Source: Eledone cirrhosa (Eukaryota). From it: a stretch of DNA of 64,000 nucleotides. The position numbers and the translations under genes were made by a program. Numbering within the stretch: the first letter of the stretch is position 1; every line of letters begins with the position of its first letter. The stretch covers positions 95,666,001-95,730,000 of the forward strand of contig OZ024746.1 in NCBI GenBank assembly GCA_964016885.1. Direction: 5' to 3'. The notes beneath the pieces were generated by a model. That model was not told where the DNA came from, did no database searches, and saw only the letters and a list, made by a program, of their open reading frames with translations. This document shows positions 32 to 31,661 of this stretch, in pieces.

Positions 32-180
32 ATATATATATATATATAAATGTAATTTAAGTTTTTCGAATATTAATAATAACATTCGATTTGTTTGCAA
101 TTATGCAAACAAGCCTCAATTTTATAGTCATGTCAGTAGAATGAACACTTCATTCTTGCTCTTATGTTGGCATGCGAACA

Positions 181-230
181 GAACTGCAGACACTAATGTT
201 TCTGGGTATCACCCTTCATCAGTACAGCTC
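181..230 (-). ncRNA. Type-I hammerhead ribozyme motif (Penelope-type, short stem III)
   Basis: Minus strand reads GAGCUGUA-CUGAUGA-aGGGUgauACCCa-GAAA-cauuagu-GUC-UGCAGUUC. Intact core, 8-bp stem I (two G-U), 4-bp stem II with an A-A mismatch at its base, GUC triplet; predicted cut between 189 and 188. Confidence 0.75.
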
Positions 231-494
231 ACTGTTCACCTGCCAAACTGTCAGAGCTAGTGAAAATATGTTTTTTTCAAAAATACAGTGACTGATCGGC
301 CTGATTTGCATATTAGCAGACTGGCTGATCAGTCAGATCTGCATATTAGCAGATCCACTGATCAATATATGATAGAACTTTTCAGTTTTACTGAGCACAT
401 AACAACCTGTGTCATGGTGGCATCAAGTTAAAATGCACCCAGTATACACTGTAAAGTAGCTGGTTATTAAACAATGGCAATATAAGATAAATGA

Positions 495-852
495 AGGCAC
501 ATTGCTTAGTGGTTAGTGCATTGGGCTTGCAATCAAAAGGTTGTGAATTCAATTCTCGGACCGGGTGATGTGTTGTTTCCTTGAGCAAGACATTTTATTT
601 CATGTTGCTCCAGTTTACTCAGCTGTAGAAGTGAGATGATAGGACTGGGGTCCCTATCATTCAATCACCCAAGACACCTCCATAGAGATATAACTTGGAG
701 GAGGCCAGCTAAACCTGCATAGGTGTGAGCTGTCACACACACAATATAAGATAGAGAGAACCCTTAGGTCTTACTGAGCACGTGACAACCTGTCTCATGT
801 TTGTGTCATGTTAAAATGCACCCAGTACACTCTGTAAAGTAACTGGTTATTA
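495..852 (+). mobile_element. tRNA-head SINE with CORE-like domain (family A)
   Basis: A-box-like TTGCTTAGTGGTTAG, B-box-like GAATTCAATTC, then GTTTCCTTGAGCAAGACATTTTATTTCA. Shares head and CORE-like region with the full copy at 26033-26411. Confidence 0.75.
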
Positions 853-985
853 ATCCTTTAGCATTTAAACTGGTCAGAATTCTCTCACCTTTTTCTGTTC
901 AAACCAGTCATAAGTAGCCACTAATACTGATGTTAAGGTATTGTTCTCAAAATAAATAATATCAAAATGTCATACAAAAAATTGG
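849..985. mobile_element. Truncated TTAA (piggyBac-type) MITE, family 1
   Basis: Starts TTAATCCTTTAGCATTTAAAC; body matches the full copies at 39323-39538 and 62635-62850. Confidence 0.65.
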
Positions 986-1606
986 AATATACAGCAAACC
1001 CCCTACCCCACAAAACTTTACATATCAAAGTTAGCTTGGTGCAAGTAATTGGAATTGAAAAGTTATACATACAGGTATTAAATTCAAACATTCTAACCAT
1101 CCTACAACTAAAAAGCCCAGCTGAGGGCATAAATAAATTGATATGGCTGTCATTGGTAGGGCTCCCATTGCAGGGGGCCTGGGGCAATTGCCTCCTTTGC
1201 CCTCCCTCCATGAATCCAGCCATGTTCACTGCCCCTAGACAGGTACTTTATTTATTGACCCAGAAAAAATGAAAGGCATGTTTGGATACAGTCAATTTCT
1301 CCCAGAGAGAAAGAGGGAAGAAGACAGAGAGAAAGACAAAATTGATATGACAAATTGACCGTAGTACCGGAGGACTGGGGATTTATTTGTCAATCCTGAC
1401 CTGAAGGGATGAAGAATAAAGTTGACCTTGGTGGAATGTGAACTTAGAGAACAGAGAGTCAGGACAAACACCACAGAGCATTATTATGCCCTAGCTACTG
1501 TGCCAATCTGTCATATAAGGAAGATCAAATAGAGTAGTGTCTCTTCTCAAAGACTCAACTGCAATAATTGTCACAAAATCTGATCCACTAAAGTATGATG
1601 AGCAAG

Positions 1607-3011
1607 CAGATCAACTTAGACTCCTTCGTCAAATCAGATTAACTTAGACTCCTTGGTCAAATCAGATTAACTTAGGCTCCTTGGTCAAATCAGATTAACT
1701 TAGACTCCTTCGTCAAATCAGATTAACTTAGACTCCTTGGGCAAATCAGATTAACTTAGACTTCTTGGTCAAATCAGATTAACTTAGGCTCCTTGGTCAA
1801 ATCAGATTAACTTAGGCTCCTTGGTCAAATCAGATTAACTTAGGCTCCTTGGTCAAATCAGATTAACTTAGACTCCTTGGTCAAATCAGATTAACTTAGG
1901 CTCCTTGGTCAAATCAGATTAACTTAGACTCCTTCGTCAAATCAGATTAACTTAGACTCCTTGGGCAAATCAGATTAACTTAGACTTCTTGGTCAAATCA
2001 GATTAACTTAGGCTCCTTGGGCAAATCAGATTAACTTAGACTTCTTGGTCAAATCAGATTAACTTAGGCTCCTTGGTCAAATCAGATTAACTTAGACTCC
2101 TTGGTCAAATCAGATTAACTTAGGCTCCTTGGTCAAATCAGATTAACTTAGACTCCTTGGTCAAATCAGATTAACTTAGACTCCTTCGTCAAATCAGATT
2201 AACTTAGACTCCTTGGTCAAATCAGATTAACTTAGACTCCTTGGTCAAATCAGATTAACTTAGACTCCTTCGTCAAACCAGATTAACTTAGGCTCCTTGG
2301 TCAAATCAGATTAACTTAGGCTCCTTGGTCAAATCAGATTAACTTAGGCTCCTTGGTCAAATCAGATTAACTTAGGCTCCTTGGTCAAATCAGATTAACT
2401 TAGGCTCCTTGGTCAAATCAGATTAACTTAGACTCCTTCGTCAAATCAGATTAACTTAGGCTCCTTGGTCAAATCAGATTAACTTAGGCTCCTTGGTCAA
2501 ACCAGATTAACTTAGGCTCCTTGGTCAAATCAGATTAACTTAGACTCCTTGGTCAAATCAGATTAACTTAGGCTCTTGGTCAAATCAGATCAGCTTAGGC
2601 TCCTTGGTCAAATAAGATTACCTTAGACTCCTTGGTCAAATCAGATTACCTTAGACTCCTTGGTCAAATCAGATTAACTTAGACTCCTTGGTCAAATCAG
2701 ATTAACTTAGACTCCTTGGTCAAATCAGATTAACTTAGACTCCTTCGTCAAACCAGATTAACTTAGGCTCCTTGGTCAAATCAGATTAACTTAGGCTCCT
2801 TGGTCAAATCAGATTAACTTAGACTCCTTGGTCAAATCAGATTAACTTAGACTCCTTGGTCAAATCAGATTACCTTAGACTCCTTGGTCAAATAAGATTA
2901 CCTTAGACTCCTTGGTCAAATCAGATTAACTTAGACTCCTTGGTCAAATCAGATTAACTTAGACTCCTTGGTCAAATCAGATTAACTTAGACTCCTTGGT
3001 CAAATCAGATT
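1607..3011. repeat. 28-bp minisatellite, ~50 copies (CAGATTAACTTAGRCTCCTTGGTCAAAT)
   Basis: Period 28 read directly (CTCCTT at 1621 and 1649); highly homogeneous, no unique spacers. Confidence 0.97.
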
Positions 3012-3499
3012 TTAAAAAATGTTCTTGTGAAAATTAAGAGGATGTCCTATTATCCATTGGGTCATTCAGAGATCACTGAAAACTTTTCTTTCTTTCAGAG
3101 TATCTATCTAGGACCTGGCATAGTTCATTCTTCTCCAAGATAGATTTATAAGAAGATTTAAGGAAGCTGTAGTGTTGAATCATTCCTTGCATAGTTATTT
3201 ATAAGAAAGGGGACTAGGCCACTAAGAGTTAAGTGTCTTTATCAGGGAATAGGTCATTTGGAACAGGCCCCTATGATGCACACTCATTCATGGAAGGCAT
3301 GGAATTTTGCATTCTGCAAAGCTTACCCAATTGGCACTTCAAATGAAACAACAGAAGACAGATGCCTCCCATGTCACTGTTACTTCCATATTGGAATCAG
3401 ACTCACCACCCATCTACAAACACATAAAGTCCAACCAATGATGTAGCAAAAATGATGGTGTTCATCAACTACCAATGGATGAACAACAGAACACTAGTA

Positions 3500-3720
3500 A
3501 TGGAAAACAAAAGCTCGATTCATCAGCCAGTAGGATGGCAGGCTATCACTTTTACCAACTGACTTTCTAATGAAAGATACCCAGTAAAACAATATTGACA
3601 ACCTGAGAAAGTGGTCCTCACGAAACCCTGACTTTCTTATGAAAGATACCTTATAAAATATATTAACAAACTGAGAAAGTGGTCCTCACCAGCTCCTGAT
3701 TTGTTTCTCTGGGACAAATA
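3500..3720 (+). mobile_element. Possible very decayed Tc1/mariner transposase remnant
   Basis: AAGTGGTCCTCACCAGCTCCTGATTTGTTTCTCTGGGAC translates KWSSPAPDLFLWD, resembling WPPxSPDL..DFFLWG; a QDG-like CAGTAGGATGGC lies upstream. Heavily degraded. Confidence 0.3.
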
Positions 3721-3829
3721 TATCTGACGATGACCATAGTTGTGGAAATAATCAACAGCTTTTCCTTCAATAGAACATCCTCCATTGAACTGAAGGTTGG
3801 ATATAAAATATCATATTAGTGTAACGTTG

Positions 3830-4250
3830 AACATTATCATAGAATGTGTAATGTTATTGTACATTATCATATAATAAGTAATGTTATTGTACATTATCAA
3901 AGAATGTGTAGTGTGGAACTATATAGTACAATATGTAATGTTATCATATGATATGTTACATTTTTGGTTATTATCATAGAATGTATAATATGGAACTATA
4001 TAGCACAATATGTAATGTTATTGTACATTATCATACAATATGTAATGTTGGACATTATCATACAACATGTAATGTGTAACATTATAGTACATGTAATGTG
4101 TAACATTATCATACAATATATAATATGGAACATTATAGTACAACATGTAATGTCTAACATTATCATACATGTAATGTATTGAAGATTATCATACAATGTG
4201 TAATGTAGGGAAAATTATAGTATAATATGTAATGTTAAATATTATCACAA
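3830..4250. repeat. Degenerate AT-rich minisatellite (ACATTATCATACAATATGTAATGT-like, ~27-32 bp)
   Basis: Recurrent CATTATCATA...TGTAATGT motif; source of the ORFs at 3964-4196. Confidence 0.85.
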
Positions 4251-10358: not shown

Positions 10359-10858
10359 ATATATATGTATGTATGTATGTTCTTCTGGTTTTATAATTTC
10401 ACAAAGTTTTACCAATAGAGAGAGAGTCGGTTTCTAACATAGACACAAGACTCTCTCATTGGAATTTACACAACATCAACTCGGTAGATATGTATGTATG
10501 CATGCATGTGTAGATATGGATGTTATTGTATGTGTGGATGTGTATGCTTTGAGTTGTATGTGTGCATGTGTATATGCTTTGTATCTGTACATGTGTATAT
10601 GCAGTTATTAGATGCAACATTTTTTGGAATGTTTTACATATTTTTACTGTTCCATTAATGGATTGTACTTGTAATTTCCTAACTAGTTGTGTTATGTATG
10701 TACGTATGTATGTATGTTCTTCTGGTTTTATAATTTCACAAAGTTTTACCAATGTATGTATGTATGTATGTATGTATGTATGTATATTTAATATTGTTAT
10801 TTATCTCCTCAAACAAATTAAAATATAAAATATATAAATTTGTATATAAATTTCTTAC

Positions 10859-11110
10859 CTGTTTACTTTTCTTCAATGTTTTCTTCATACCTTTATACTT
10901 GAAATAACTTTTCACAAATCTGTCATTCTGGGAATTATAAGGTGGAATCACTTGACCTAGCTTGGGATTTAATTTAGAAAAATCACTTGAAATGCTACTG
11001 ACAGCTACACTGTCCAGTATAAAGCCATTTTCAAACCTTTTCAAATCTGCAGGAGATGGAGTTGGTGGTGTTTTATAAATTTTATTGTGTCGTTTTTTCT
11101 TCGAAGGCAT
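10859..11110 (-). CDS. SPMAP1: First coding exon (84 codons) of a C17orf98/SPMAP1-like sperm/cilia microtubule-associated protein
   Basis: ATG at 11110; ...LKRFENGFILDSVAVSSISSDFSKLNPKLGQVIPPYNSQNDRFVKSYF...KQ matches the recalled human C17orf98 N-terminus (LEKGFILDGVAVS...PKLWSAIPPYNAQQD...SYF). Ends at a canonical phase-0 donor CAG|GTAAGA (intron begins 10858). The ORF-track extension to 10736 is intronic. Confidence 0.85.
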
Positions 11111-11290
11111 TATTATATACTATACTATACACTAAGTAATTTATTATTTGTTGTAACTAACTGACTACTAGCACACAGCTCACTAAGTTTACTATATAGA
11201 TCTACTTAATGATTGCCACTATGATAACATTGGTAGTACTTCCACTAGTTTCTACACCCCTCACTGACCTTGGCTGTACCAACAGTTATT

Positions 11291-28960: not shown

Positions 28961-29896
28961 GAAAGAGAAAGCCATCTCCCTGAAAAGTCATCAGATAAGT
29001 AAACAAATGATATCAGAAAATAAAGACCTCTCCCACCCCTCAGCAACCCCACACCCCAAGGGAAGGTGGATAGGTAGGTAGATACATTGTTTTTGTATGT
29101 TTATTTAGGTCTCCACCAGTAGGCTGTTAGGGAAGGCATTAAGCAGAAGAATCTGTAGAGCAAACATGCAACTAAGTGTAAGTGCCAATCAAATACTGAT
29201 TGAGTCAGAGCCGCCATTATACCTAAAAGCCATTAGTGGGAGTGGCGGCGGCAGTGGTGGTGGTGGTCATGGCGGTGGTGGTGGGATACAAAAAGAAGAA
29301 AAGGGAATCAAACATCAGCATCATATATTTATTATCATCATCATCATCATCATTTAATGTTCATTTTCCAATCTAGCATGGGTCTAGCATGGAGTTGTGT
29401 CCCATTGTGAGACAAGTCAGGTGACCATGTCTTGCTTATATAGAACTGTTTTTGGCTTGGTTTCTACAGCCTGGATGATGATGTTGCATGTGTCCATCAT
29501 CATCATCATCGTTTAATGTCCATCTTCCATACTAGTATGGGTAGAACGGGCTGTTCCTTTGTGAGGGATCAGGCTGGGGGACCATGATTTGCTCACACAG
29601 AACTGATTTTGGATTGGTTTCTATGGCTGGATGCCCTTCCTAACACTAACCACTTCGCAGTGTGGACTGGGTGCTTTTTGTCGTGTCACCTACACGACCA
29701 CTTCACAGTGTGGACTGGGTGCTCGGTTTTGTCATACCATCTACATGACCACTATAGTGTGGGCTCTTTTGTCATGGCTCCAGGGCTGATCACTTTATAC
29801 ACATATACACAGGGTGCGACAAAAAAAGCTCCCATATTTTATACGATCAACCTTTAAAATGTGGAAGGCATTTTTGCTGCACCCAACTGCAGGGGA

Positions 29897-30306
29897 TATT
29901 TGACGGCTGGAGAGAAATGATGCAAGCATGCTCCGTTGGATGTACAATGTCAATGTGCGTGAATGACCCAGCATGGATGTGTTGAGAGAGAAACTGTGTC
30001 TGAGAGGGATAGAATGTAGTGTGCGAAAGAGGAGACTGCGGTGGTATGGACATGCGATGCGCATGGAGGATGACCGATGGGTGAAGAAGTGCCAGGAAAT
30101 GCCAGTTGAAGGAAGACGTGGTAGAGGTAGACCACGAAAAACATGGGCGGAGGTGGTGAGAACAGAGCTCAGATCGCTGAAGCTCACAGTTGAGATGACG
30201 AAGGACCGTGATGAGTGGAGAGATGCTGTGCTGAATAAGACCCGTCCCACCCTTGCAAGCAGGGAAAAGCGGGCGTAAAAATGATGATGATGATGATGAT
30301 GATGAT
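29897..30306 (+). mobile_element. RTE LINE 3' fragment (family R1), well preserved, (TGA)n tail
   Basis: RLERNDASMLRWMYNV...LREKLCLRGIECSVRKRRLRWYGHAMRMEDDRWVKKCQEMPVEGRRGRGRPRKTW...DRDEWR, then stop and tail. Confidence 0.92.
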
Positions 30307-30369
30307 ATTTATATATGTACGTATATATATATATATATATACAAGCCATTAATACATATCTTTATATAG

Positions 30370-30407
30370 CTCTTACACGTGTTTCACCCAATAGGGCTCA
30401 TCGGAGA
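30370..30407 (-). ncRNA. Minimal hammerhead motif with a core mutation (CCGAUGA)
   Basis: Minus strand UCU-CCGAUGA-GCCCuauuGGGU-GAAA-CACGU-GUA-AGA; mirror copy of 30611-30648. Confidence 0.6.
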
Positions 30408-30610
30408 CAGATATTAAAAGCAAAGTTTTTAATTACAGACCCTAAGAGGGTAAAATAATAGTTTTACATCGCCATGCATAGTAATTTTAAATGTTAAAGG
30501 TATAAACACGGTGAAAGGAGTATACATTTAAAATTACTATGCATGGCGATGTAAAACTATTATTTTACCCTCTTAGGGTCTGTAATTAAAAACTTTACTT
30601 TTAATATCTG

Positions 30611-30648
30611 CCTCTGATGAGCCCTATTGGGTGAAACACGTGTAAGAG
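30611..30648 (+). ncRNA. Minimal type-I hammerhead ribozyme (Penelope-type, palindromic stem III)
   Basis: CCU-CUGAUGA-GCCCuauuGGGU-GAAA-CACGU-GUA-AGAG. Intact core, 4-bp stem II, self-complementary ACACGUGU, GUA triplet (cut after 30644). Stem I is only 2-3 bp. Confidence 0.75.
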
Positions 30649-31119
30649 TTATATAAAGATTGTTTTAACGGCTTGTAACTCTTTCATTAATTCTTTTGCT
30701 TATTACAGCTCTGCTTAACCTTTACACTAACTATTAACTTTCTCTAATATTTAACCCTGATAACCCAAGCATTGAGCACTTACGCATCCGCTTTTGGCAT
30801 GTAATATTCTGTATCACACCTCTTTATACCTCTTCTTTTTATCCTCTTTTACGATACTGTAACCTATTATATATATATGATGGTTGCAAACTTTGCTAAG
30901 AGTCTTGCAATTGCTTGGAGGATTATAGAGTTTGGTGCACTTTTAGGCTATGGCCAGCCACACAAACCTGTAACATATCCTGAACAGGCAATGCCTGTGC
31001 TTTGAAGGTTTTTTAAGTGGGGAAAGGCCTTGCACTCGACCAATCCCACTCTCTGAGCATTGTAAACACTACCCGAAAAGGATACATACATACATAAATA
31101 CACACATACATATGTATTT

Positions 31120-31213
<94 letters not shown>

Positions 31214-31234
31214 CTATGTAAACATATATATTTT

Positions 31235-31661
31235 ACCAAAACATTAACAGAGATTAAGAAAGTTGACGTCATTATAAATGTTCCGATAACTCTGATAATA
31301 CATTTCTATAACTCAATTTGGATAAGAAACAAATAGTCTCCACTGTGACATAAGCAGGGGGGTAAGTGATTCAGTGGATCTCAGAGAACTTATTGGTCTC
31401 CTTTTCCTCTTTGCCATTAAGGAATAATTCTCTAATGTAGATGGTGGTCTGTACCATGATGATGGTCTTTTGACTGTCACCATGTCCCAACCCCAAGCTC
31501 TAGATAAGATTATGAAGAAATTTATTGTTTTCTATAAAGGCTTCAAAGTTTCAATAAAAGAAAATGCAAACCTATCGGTGGTGCCATTCTTGAATGTGAC
31601 CCTAGATCTGTTTAATCGCTTATTTTGTTTATACAGAAAGCCCAATGAAACTTTGAATTGA
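31235..31661 (+). mobile_element. Penelope-like element reverse transcriptase remnant
   Basis: ...VDVIINV..TLI..FYNSIWIRNK...GVSDSVDLRELIGLLFL..IKE*FSNVDGGLYHDDGLL...PQALDKIMKKFI...VVPFLNVTLDLFN....YRKPNE matches PLE RT motifs (GSYDGAExCELVG, GLYRDDGL, FLDVTLDL, YRKPN). Confidence 0.8.

What the first reader, a model, noticed from the sequence alone, without database searches (positions are those of the whole stretch)
30341..31661. Palindrome with two opposed hammerheads beside a Penelope RT remnant
Seen: ~154-bp arms, 29-nt spacer; one arm has an intact core (30611-30648, +), the other a U-to-C core change (30370-30407, -). Both have the self-complementary stem III ACACGUGU. A PLE RT remnant lies ~550 bp away. 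Established: PLE pseudo-LTRs occur inverted, and their minimal hammerheads are reported to cleave better as dimers. Inference: on either strand the antisense arm is transcribed first, so a read-through RNA would fold into a long hairpin that masks the ribozyme and could be an ADAR or Dicer substrate.
Basis: partly seen in the sequence, partly recalled or inferred. Interest (0 to 1): 0.7.

Follow-up and report, generated by a model that had tools for sequence, protein, structure and literature searches.

The report
Hydra retroelement stub, drifted hammerhead core
The palindrome is real and is an ordinary leftover of a known jumping gene, two cut-short ends joined head to head in a TA repeat; the one oddity is that its family has swapped a normally fixed letter of its self-cutting RNA motif while keeping the rest, which likely weakens cutting.

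Summary
The palindrome is confirmed: 155-column arms, 7 differences, two opposed type I hammerheads. It is a 5'-truncated insertion of a Hydra-clade Penelope-like element (PLE): a pseudo-LTR with its 190-nt tail, plus an inverted, shorter copy joined head to head in (TA)n. The arm is linked to the family's RT and endonuclease in 19 of 20 RT-selected loci, and 16 of 30 independently sampled copies also carry an inverted 5' piece. This layout is published, and this scan noted it before on other DNA. The RT remnant 550 bp away belongs to another, older family (34% amino-acid identity, no DNA match). And the 'intact' CUGA core is the exception: the family reads CCGA (37) or CAGA (36) against CUGA (6) of 79 matches, the U likely being CpG decay. 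Older sister subfamilies have U4. Across nine subfamilies the other 25 core and stem positions are invariant while loops vary, so the fold looks selected after U4 was lost. I found no report of a U4A hammerhead lineage. Hairpin masking is a sound prediction, but nothing shows this locus is transcribed.

The parts
30340..30524 (-). Left arm: inverted, 5'-truncated pseudo-LTR of the Hydra-clade family, including the 29-nt 'spacer' (30495-30523); its 3' end stops early at a TA and runs into the (TA)n tract
30374..30404 (-). Type I hammerhead core with C4 (CCGAUGA), the subfamily's usual form; predicted cut after GUA
30524..30524 (.). Head-to-head junction; one base fits both arms
   Evidence: sequence compared with family copies
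30524..30703 (+). Right arm: 5'-truncated pseudo-LTR up to the family's short 3' end point
30614..30644 (+). Type I hammerhead core with U4 (CUGAUGA); the U at 30615 is private to this arm (16 of 16 close copies have C), a CpG transition
30704..30868 (+). One-sided tail (the element's 5' leader, which precedes the ORF in tandem copies) up to the long 3' end point, then (TA)n
30708..30779 (+). Predicted GCUC...GAGC-AC hairpin just behind the short end point, kept across subfamilies
   Evidence: lead from earlier scan notes
31225..31661 (+). Decayed RT fragment of a different, older Hydra-like PLE family; a neighbour, not part of the insertion

Best explanation
The palindrome is a stub of a Hydra-clade Penelope-like retrotransposon, likely made in one insertion event in which two short, 5'-truncated copies of the element's ribozyme-bearing end were joined head to head in a TA repeat. 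Shown: the arm is the pseudo-LTR of a family whose full form is pLTR-tail-ORF(RT, linker, GIY-YIG-type endonuclease)-pLTR; the right copy ends at the family's long end point and the left one at an earlier TA; inverted 5' pieces occur in about half of the family's copies, with or without the hammerhead. Inferred: the element's protein nicked the TA tract and primed reverse transcription at two places inside one RNA, both copies stopped early and were joined over one shared base. The two hammerheads are passengers: they lie on opposite strands, cannot form a double hammerhead with each other, and would be locked in a 150-bp duplex in any read-through RNA. In the parent element the hammerhead likely works as a tandem dimer through stem III. 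The family's core position 4 changed from U to C and then to A while the other core and stem positions stayed fixed; the ribozyme is likely attenuated but still selected.
For: Arm family: 43 scored matches at 80-96% of 627 candidates; 221 matches to a 33-nt core pattern, 0 for the reversed control. Six of seven loci read far upstream lead into linker and endonuclease coding sequence, one on into the RT. Of 20 loci picked by RT DNA alone, 19 hold the arm: 7 as a same-strand pLTR before the ORF, 13 after it, 8 as an inverted 5' copy (L081 and L083 look like duplicates). Hydra motifs RWK, DKT, CxCx5C, CxxC and CxH in the translations match PMC8557442 section 11. Of 30 loci picked by a pattern outside the ribozyme, 16 have an inverted family piece within 40 bp of the 5' end, several with the hammerhead cut away. 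The two arms share two variants found in only 2 of 16 close copies each. Published: inverted 5'-truncated copy and one-sided tail (PMC8557442, PMC3846280); Penelope-13_HM has both hammerhead orientations; dual hammerheads 100-700 bp apart on opposite strands (PMC4209133); internal RT initiation (PMC11167929). Position 4: C 37, A 36, T 6, G 0 of 79; 25 of 25 constrained columns invariant over nine subfamilies against 2 of 7 free columns and 18 of 99 upstream columns; within the six C4/A4 subfamilies 25 of 25, 3 of 7 and 32 of 96.
Against: No target-site duplication can be read in the TA tracts. The joining mechanism is not shown; PMC3846280 favours self-priming on an antisense template. One-template origin rests on two shared variants, and the window's arms pair with only weak support in the tree (99/20); gene conversion would look the same, and some other inverted pairs (L009, L065, L117) are not sisters. 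The 50 nt downstream of the ribozyme are also well kept (40 of 51 columns), so the block may be conserved for protein binding rather than cleavage. Subfamilies were drawn by hand from a 199-column tree, and several were found with a core pattern, which favours core invariance. Pfam and PDB gave no match for the family protein, so the clade call rests on motifs.
Confidence: 0.9

Rival explanations
1. The palindrome is a functional hairpin RNA locus: read-through transcription gives a long duplex that masks the ribozyme and feeds ADAR or Dicer, silencing the family.
For: The predicted duplex is very stable on both strands (-237 and -241 kcal/mol). PLEs yield antisense small RNAs in rotifers (PMC3846280, passages). 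Inverted stubs are common in this family, so some will lie in transcripts.
Against: Each arm has gathered 3-4 private changes with no compensation, as neutral decay would. The same structure arises at many loci with variable arm length, often without the ribozyme. The 64-kb window is mostly repeats, and the only host exon I found is 19 kb away and reads away from the locus.
Confidence: 0.07
2. The palindrome is a mobile unit of its own (MITE-like fold-back or retrozyme) that spreads as a whole.
For: Near-perfect terminal inverted arms in a TA context.
Against: No second locus has this junction or these ends among the loci examined; junctions differ at every inverted copy; the right arm has a 190-nt one-sided tail; the arm is the end of a coding PLE; no tandem array of 150-450-nt units as in retrozymes.
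Confidence: 0.02
3. The family's hammerhead is dead: U4 loss killed it, and the remaining conservation reflects recent descent or an overlapping protein-binding or promoter signal.
For: In a deep mutational scan all single changes in the CUGA turn had low activity (PMC9901934, passage). Ribozyme-dead mutants of the anole PLE still insert in vitro (PMC11167929). Stem I is only 2-3 bp next to the core, and the monomer hammerhead fold is far from the minimum-energy fold. C4 and A4 lineages kept amplifying.
Against: After U4 loss the positions that changed between subfamilies are the ones a hammerhead leaves free (N7, loop II, loop III), while 25 of 25 constrained ones did not (Fisher p about 0.001 against free columns). 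A natural U4C viroid variant keeps enough activity in vivo (PMC3088659, passage).
Confidence: 0.35
4. The RT remnant at 31225-31661 and the palindrome are parts of one element.
For: Same strand as the right arm, downstream of its tail, same PLE clade motifs.
Against: 34% identity to the family RT over 74 aa, 27-44% to 20 family loci; no DNA match in 20 family loci; its best relatives in the genome are about 70% identical against 88-96% for the arm; 0 of 19 of those relatives match arm, leader or family RT DNA; TA tracts and another repeat lie between.
Confidence: 0.01

Closest known systems
Hydra clade of C-terminal-endonuclease Penelope-like elements (Craig et al. 2021, PMC8557442; e.g. Hydra-1_Obim, Penelope-13_HM)
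   Same: RWK, DKT, YRDD, CxCx5C linker, CxxC and CxH motifs; (TA)n target; type I hammerhead with 4-bp stem II and short palindromic stem III in the pLTR; inverted 5'-truncated copy with a second, opposed hammerhead in Penelope-13_HM.
   Different: All 26 Hydra rows of their File S2 have CUGA; this family's younger subfamilies have CCGA or CAGA. The unit is about 3.8 kb (theirs under 3 kb) because of low-complexity Asn/Ser/His-rich stretches between thumb and endonuclease; the tail is about 190 nt, not 30-40.
Inverted-pLTR insertions with one-sided tail in Penelope, Poseidon and rotifer Pen elements (PMC3846280; PMC8557442 Fig. 2 legend)
   Same: Head-to-head arrangement, shorter inverted copy, tail on one side only.
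   Different: Here both copies are cut to under 400 bp with no coding sequence.
PLE hammerheads of Cervera and De la Pena 2014 (PMC4209133)
   Same: Palindromic helix III, predicted dimer use, dual motifs 100-700 bp apart on opposite strands.
   Different: Not the helix-III-less minimal form with long stem II; the core variant they report is U3-A8, not a change at position 4.
Natural U4C hammerhead variant of a viroid (cited in Perreault et al. 2011, PMC3088659)
   Same: Same core position changed to C, with reduced but sufficient activity reported.
   Different: A single viroid variant, not a multi-copy retroelement lineage; no U4A is mentioned in the parts I read.
Poseidon element PAc of the green anole (Frangieh et al. 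2024, PMC11167929)
   Same: Two 3' end points downstream of the hammerhead defining a tail; AT-rich targets.
   Different: End points here are about 165 nt apart and lie before the ORF; PAc's hammerhead has a canonical core and overlaps the start codon.

Membership tests
Hydra-clade PLE | Single ORF with RT and C-terminal GIY-YIG-type endonuclease | tested here: met
   Order RT, thumb, linker, VIY..YIG endonuclease in L032, L081, L093; all copies seen are broken; longest open stretch 504 aa (L088). No Pfam hit.
Hydra-clade PLE | RWK motif and DKT in place of DKG | tested here: met
   VRWKAY and SDKTK in L078, L088, L093
Hydra-clade PLE | CxCx5C linker; CxxC and CxH around the conserved E and N; no CCHH | tested here: met
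   CNCRNPVxC, CQLC-LME, N...CGH/CSH; absence of CCHH judged by eye only
Hydra-clade PLE | (TA)n insertion preference, pLTR tandem and inverted structure | tested here: met
Hydra-clade PLE | Canonical CUGANGA hammerhead in the pLTR | tested here: inconclusive
   Met in older sister subfamilies; position 4 is C or A in 73 of 79 matches of the window's lineage
Hydra-clade PLE | RT phylogeny groups with Hydra references | not tested
   No reference RT was available as a tool sequence
Type I hammerhead ribozyme | Core C3 G5 A6 G8 A9 G12 A13 A14, A15.1-U16.1, three stems | tested here: met
   stem I is 2-3 bp at the core, stem III needs a partner
Type I hammerhead ribozyme | U4 | tested here: not met
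   Left arm and most family copies; met only in the right arm
Type I hammerhead ribozyme | Self-cleavage | not testable with these tools
   Needs an in vitro assay
Minimal hammerhead (min-HHR) | No helix III, helix II of 7-8 bp | tested here: not met
   Helix II 4 bp, 8-nt palindromic helix III (PMC4209133)
Non-LTR retrozyme | Head-to-tail tandem of 150-450-nt non-coding units | tested here: not met
   No direct repeat of the arm near the locus
MITE / fold-back DNA transposon | Many copies with the same two ends and inner junction | tested here: not met

The most novel reading that the evidence does not exclude
An autonomous Hydra-clade lineage replaced the near-universal U4 of its hammerhead with C (twice) and then A (twice), kept amplifying with its protein under selection, and still preserved every other core and stem position. 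Either these are natural U4C/U4A ribozymes rescued by dimer formation or by the element's protein, or the hammerhead fold is kept for a job other than fast cleavage. The U, C and A subfamilies form a ready-made allelic series to test what PLE hammerheads are for.
Probability: 0.4. Interest if true: 0.55.

Novelty: new variant of a known kind. Interest (0 to 1): 0.3.

Why it matters
The palindrome itself matters little: it is a described by-product of PLE insertion. The family's drift at core position 4 bears on an open question, whether PLE hammerheads must cleave for the element to move (PMC8557442 calls their role unclear; PMC11167929 found cleavage dispensable in vitro). If C4 and A4 ribozymes cleave only as dimers or with protein, the accepted core is too strict and CUGA-based searches miss whole families. 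If they do not cleave, a hammerhead fold is being selected for another role.

Tried and rejected
Rfam found no hammerhead at E<=1; its miRNA hits are hairpin and microsatellite noise below gathering scores. Pfam found nothing for the RT remnant pieces or the family protein; PDB nothing. Single arms do not fold into the hammerhead as their minimum-energy structure (z 0.4 to -1.4). Expression: no RNA holder listed; the two listed runs are contigs of unknown kind, and none spans the palindrome, so they say nothing on transcription or editing. MITE, retrozyme and one-element-with-RT readings were rejected (see rivals). My scripted long/short end classifier matched too loosely and is not used; by eye, one search gives 15 short ends, 12 long, 3 other of 30. 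A 12-nt match of the sequence behind the ribozyme to coral Hydra-2_Amil appeared in 1 Hydra entry of the supplement only and is not pursued. Literature searches for U4C/U4A or CAGA/CCGA cores found only the viroid U4C remark; subscription papers and bioRxiv supplements were not visible, so absence from print is not established.

Full report
Observation. The inverted repeat is there: 137 nt at 97% without gaps, 30340-30494 against 30524-30677 with one gap, 7 differences in 155 columns. It folds into one hairpin at -237 kcal/mol, z -33. A hammerhead descriptor over both strands of the window returned two hits only, 30614-30644 (+) and 30374-30404 (-). Both read stem I, CNGAUGA, a 4-bp stem II with a 4-nt loop, GAAA, ACACGUGU, cut site GUA. 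Both 3' ends point outward. The window lies in a 3.0-Gb animal genome that earlier scan notes call octopus; I did not determine the organism.

What the arm is. The arm is a dispersed repeat: 43 scored matches at 80-96% among 627 candidates, and 221 matches to a 33-nt pattern with 0 for the reversed control; these are lower bounds. In the 30 best loci the sequence upstream of the arm shows that the 29-nt 'spacer' is simply the left arm reading further into family sequence, and that the right arm goes on for about 190 nt of family sequence to about 30868. The junction has one base that fits both arms. Six of seven loci read further upstream give linker and GIY-YIG-type endonuclease coding sequence, and L032 goes on into an RT. 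I then picked 20 loci by RT DNA alone: 19 hold the arm, 7 as a same-strand copy with tail directly before the ORF, 13 after the ORF, 8 as an inverted copy at the 5' end (L081 and L083 look duplicated).

Clade. The translations show RWK, DKT, YRDD, a CxCx5C linker and CxxC and CxH motifs, the features listed for the Hydra clade in Craig et al. 2021 (PMC8557442; I read section 11, passages, and parts of the supplement). Pfam and PDB gave nothing, and I had no reference RT for a tree, so the call rests on motifs.

The RT remnant. It has the same clade's motifs, but is 34% identical to the family RT, has no DNA match in the 20 family loci, and its best relatives are about 70% identical. None of 19 such relatives matches the arm, leader or family RT DNA. 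It is an older, separate insertion.

How the palindrome likely arose. In 30 loci picked by a pattern downstream of the ribozyme (first 30 of 121 matches), 16 have an inverted family piece within 40 bp of their 5' end; two ran off the locus edge. Arm lengths and junctions differ at every locus, and some fold-backs have lost the ribozyme altogether. Copies end mostly at two points, about 30703 and 30868 in window terms (15 short, 12 long, 3 other by eye; loose TA ends at 30703); the window's left arm ends earlier, at a TA. The two arms share two variants seen in 2 of 16 close copies each, and have 4 and 3 private changes, which fits one template and later neutral decay; the tree supports their pairing only weakly. 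The layout is published: inverted 5'-truncated copy with one-sided tail (PMC8557442; PMC3846280, passages), Penelope-13_HM with hammerheads in both orientations, dual hammerheads 100-700 bp apart on opposite strands (PMC4209133, parts 1-2 of 4). Internal RT initiation at two sites explains the tail in the anole element (PMC11167929, parts 1-2 of 4). That two short cDNAs were primed in the TA tract and joined is my inference; PMC3846280 proposes antisense self-priming instead. Earlier scan notes reached the same verdict on other palindromes.

The masking idea. It is correct as geometry: on each strand the antisense arm is made first, and the duplex is predicted at -237 or -241 kcal/mol. The two ribozymes are on opposite strands and cannot dimerise with each other. 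No RNA holder was listed, so transcription, editing and dicing are untested. The window is mostly repeats; the one host exon I found (SPMAP1-like) is 19 kb away and points away.

The core. Among 56 aligned arms position 4 is A in 29, C in 24, U in 2 and a gap in 1. A genome scan leaving that position open gave C 37, A 36, T 6, G 0 of 79 (my count). In 29 C4-subfamily copies position 4 is T in 3 and the comparable CpG at 11.1 is T in 2, so the U copies, the window's right arm among them, look like CpG decay. Sister subfamilies with true CUGA exist and lead into related coding sequence (endonuclease 54-72%, RT 72-80% in the linked loci). A tree of 89 ends (13 of 102 rows dropped as misregistered, truncated or folded back; midpoint root for drawing only) puts U4 groups at one end, C4 in the middle, and A4 nested with two origins. 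U4 groups are more diverged (mean pairwise 0.16) than the A4 and late C4 groups (0.08-0.11), and all 26 Hydra rows in the published table have CUGA, so U to C to A is the likely order. A4 and C4 subfamilies had their own coding elements: against L088, six other copies differ mostly at third codon positions, for example 28, 31 and 76 for another A4 copy.

Is the ribozyme still selected? Over majority sequences of nine hand-drawn subfamilies (73 copies), 25 of 25 constrained core and stem columns are invariant, against 2 of 7 free columns (N7, loops), 18 of 99 upstream and 40 of 51 downstream. Within the six C4/A4 subfamilies the figures are 25 of 25, 3 of 7, 32 of 96 and 44 of 50. One further sister changes stem III to ACAUUAUGU, still self-pairing. 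Caveats: some groups were found with a core pattern, though two core-blind samples showed the same cores; the downstream flank is conserved too; subfamilies are related, so the p-values are rough. Against activity: all single CUGA changes were low in a mutational scan (PMC9901934, passages), and cleavage-dead PAc still inserts in vitro. For it: a viroid U4C variant keeps enough activity in vivo (PMC3088659, section 8 and passages). I put attenuated but selected at about 0.6 and dead at about 0.35. Four paper searches found no U4A lineage; PMC7229834 and PMC3376415 (passages) and the 2026 retrozyme preprint (part 1 of 5; supplements closed) added nothing on it. The scan has noted a U4C subfamily in another genome.

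Tail hairpins. Following earlier notes, I checked and found a GCUC...GAGC-AC hairpin just behind the short end (30708-30779; 67 matching rows across subfamilies, selected by that motif) and a short GCUC-N9-GAGC stem behind the long end in tandem copies (clear in L088, L093, L096, L086; decayed in L078, L091, L092). I did not test covariation.

Verdict. The family-wide loss of U4 is a modest new variant that makes the role of PLE hammerheads testable. Interest 0.3.

Noticed in passing
window 10856-11119 (-): Host coding exon matching Pfam SPMAP1-like (PF15075, E 2e-19), reading away from the palindrome.
   Followed up: partly
window 30708-30779 (+); L088 about 2920-2940: Twin GCUC...GAGC hairpins just behind the family's two 3' end points; a similar motif is visible at the end of coral Hydra-2_Amil in the published supplement. 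Agrees with earlier scan notes.
   Followed up: partly
L032 5900-6870, L081, L093: Long low-complexity Asn/Ser/His-rich stretches between RT thumb and endonuclease make this family about 1 kb longer than described Hydra elements; N-rich inserts are described for rotifer Penelope (PMC3846280).
   Followed up: no
L037 5916-6516; L143; L147: Inverted 5' pieces that come from the element body upstream of the direct piece, like twin-priming inversions of L1 (comparison recalled).
   Followed up: no
G000 C5:106941953-106942213; C5:63311914-63311973; C4:189649213-189649317; L134: Perfect fold-backs with no spacer and no ribozyme, one of them doubled in tandem; L134 is a rarer tail-to-tail pair.
   Followed up: no
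window 29800-30308 (+): 3' fragment of a LINE with a (GAT)n tail directly left of the palindrome; RTE-like by recalled motifs, not tested.
   Followed up: no
window 30880-31080: Another, far more abundant repeat between the tail and the RT remnant (contig depth about 50,000 against 100-4,000 over most of the arm).
   Followed up: no
L044 (-) about 2874: A relative of the window's RT remnant has its own canonical CUGAUGA hammerhead with a different stem II and III.
   Followed up: no
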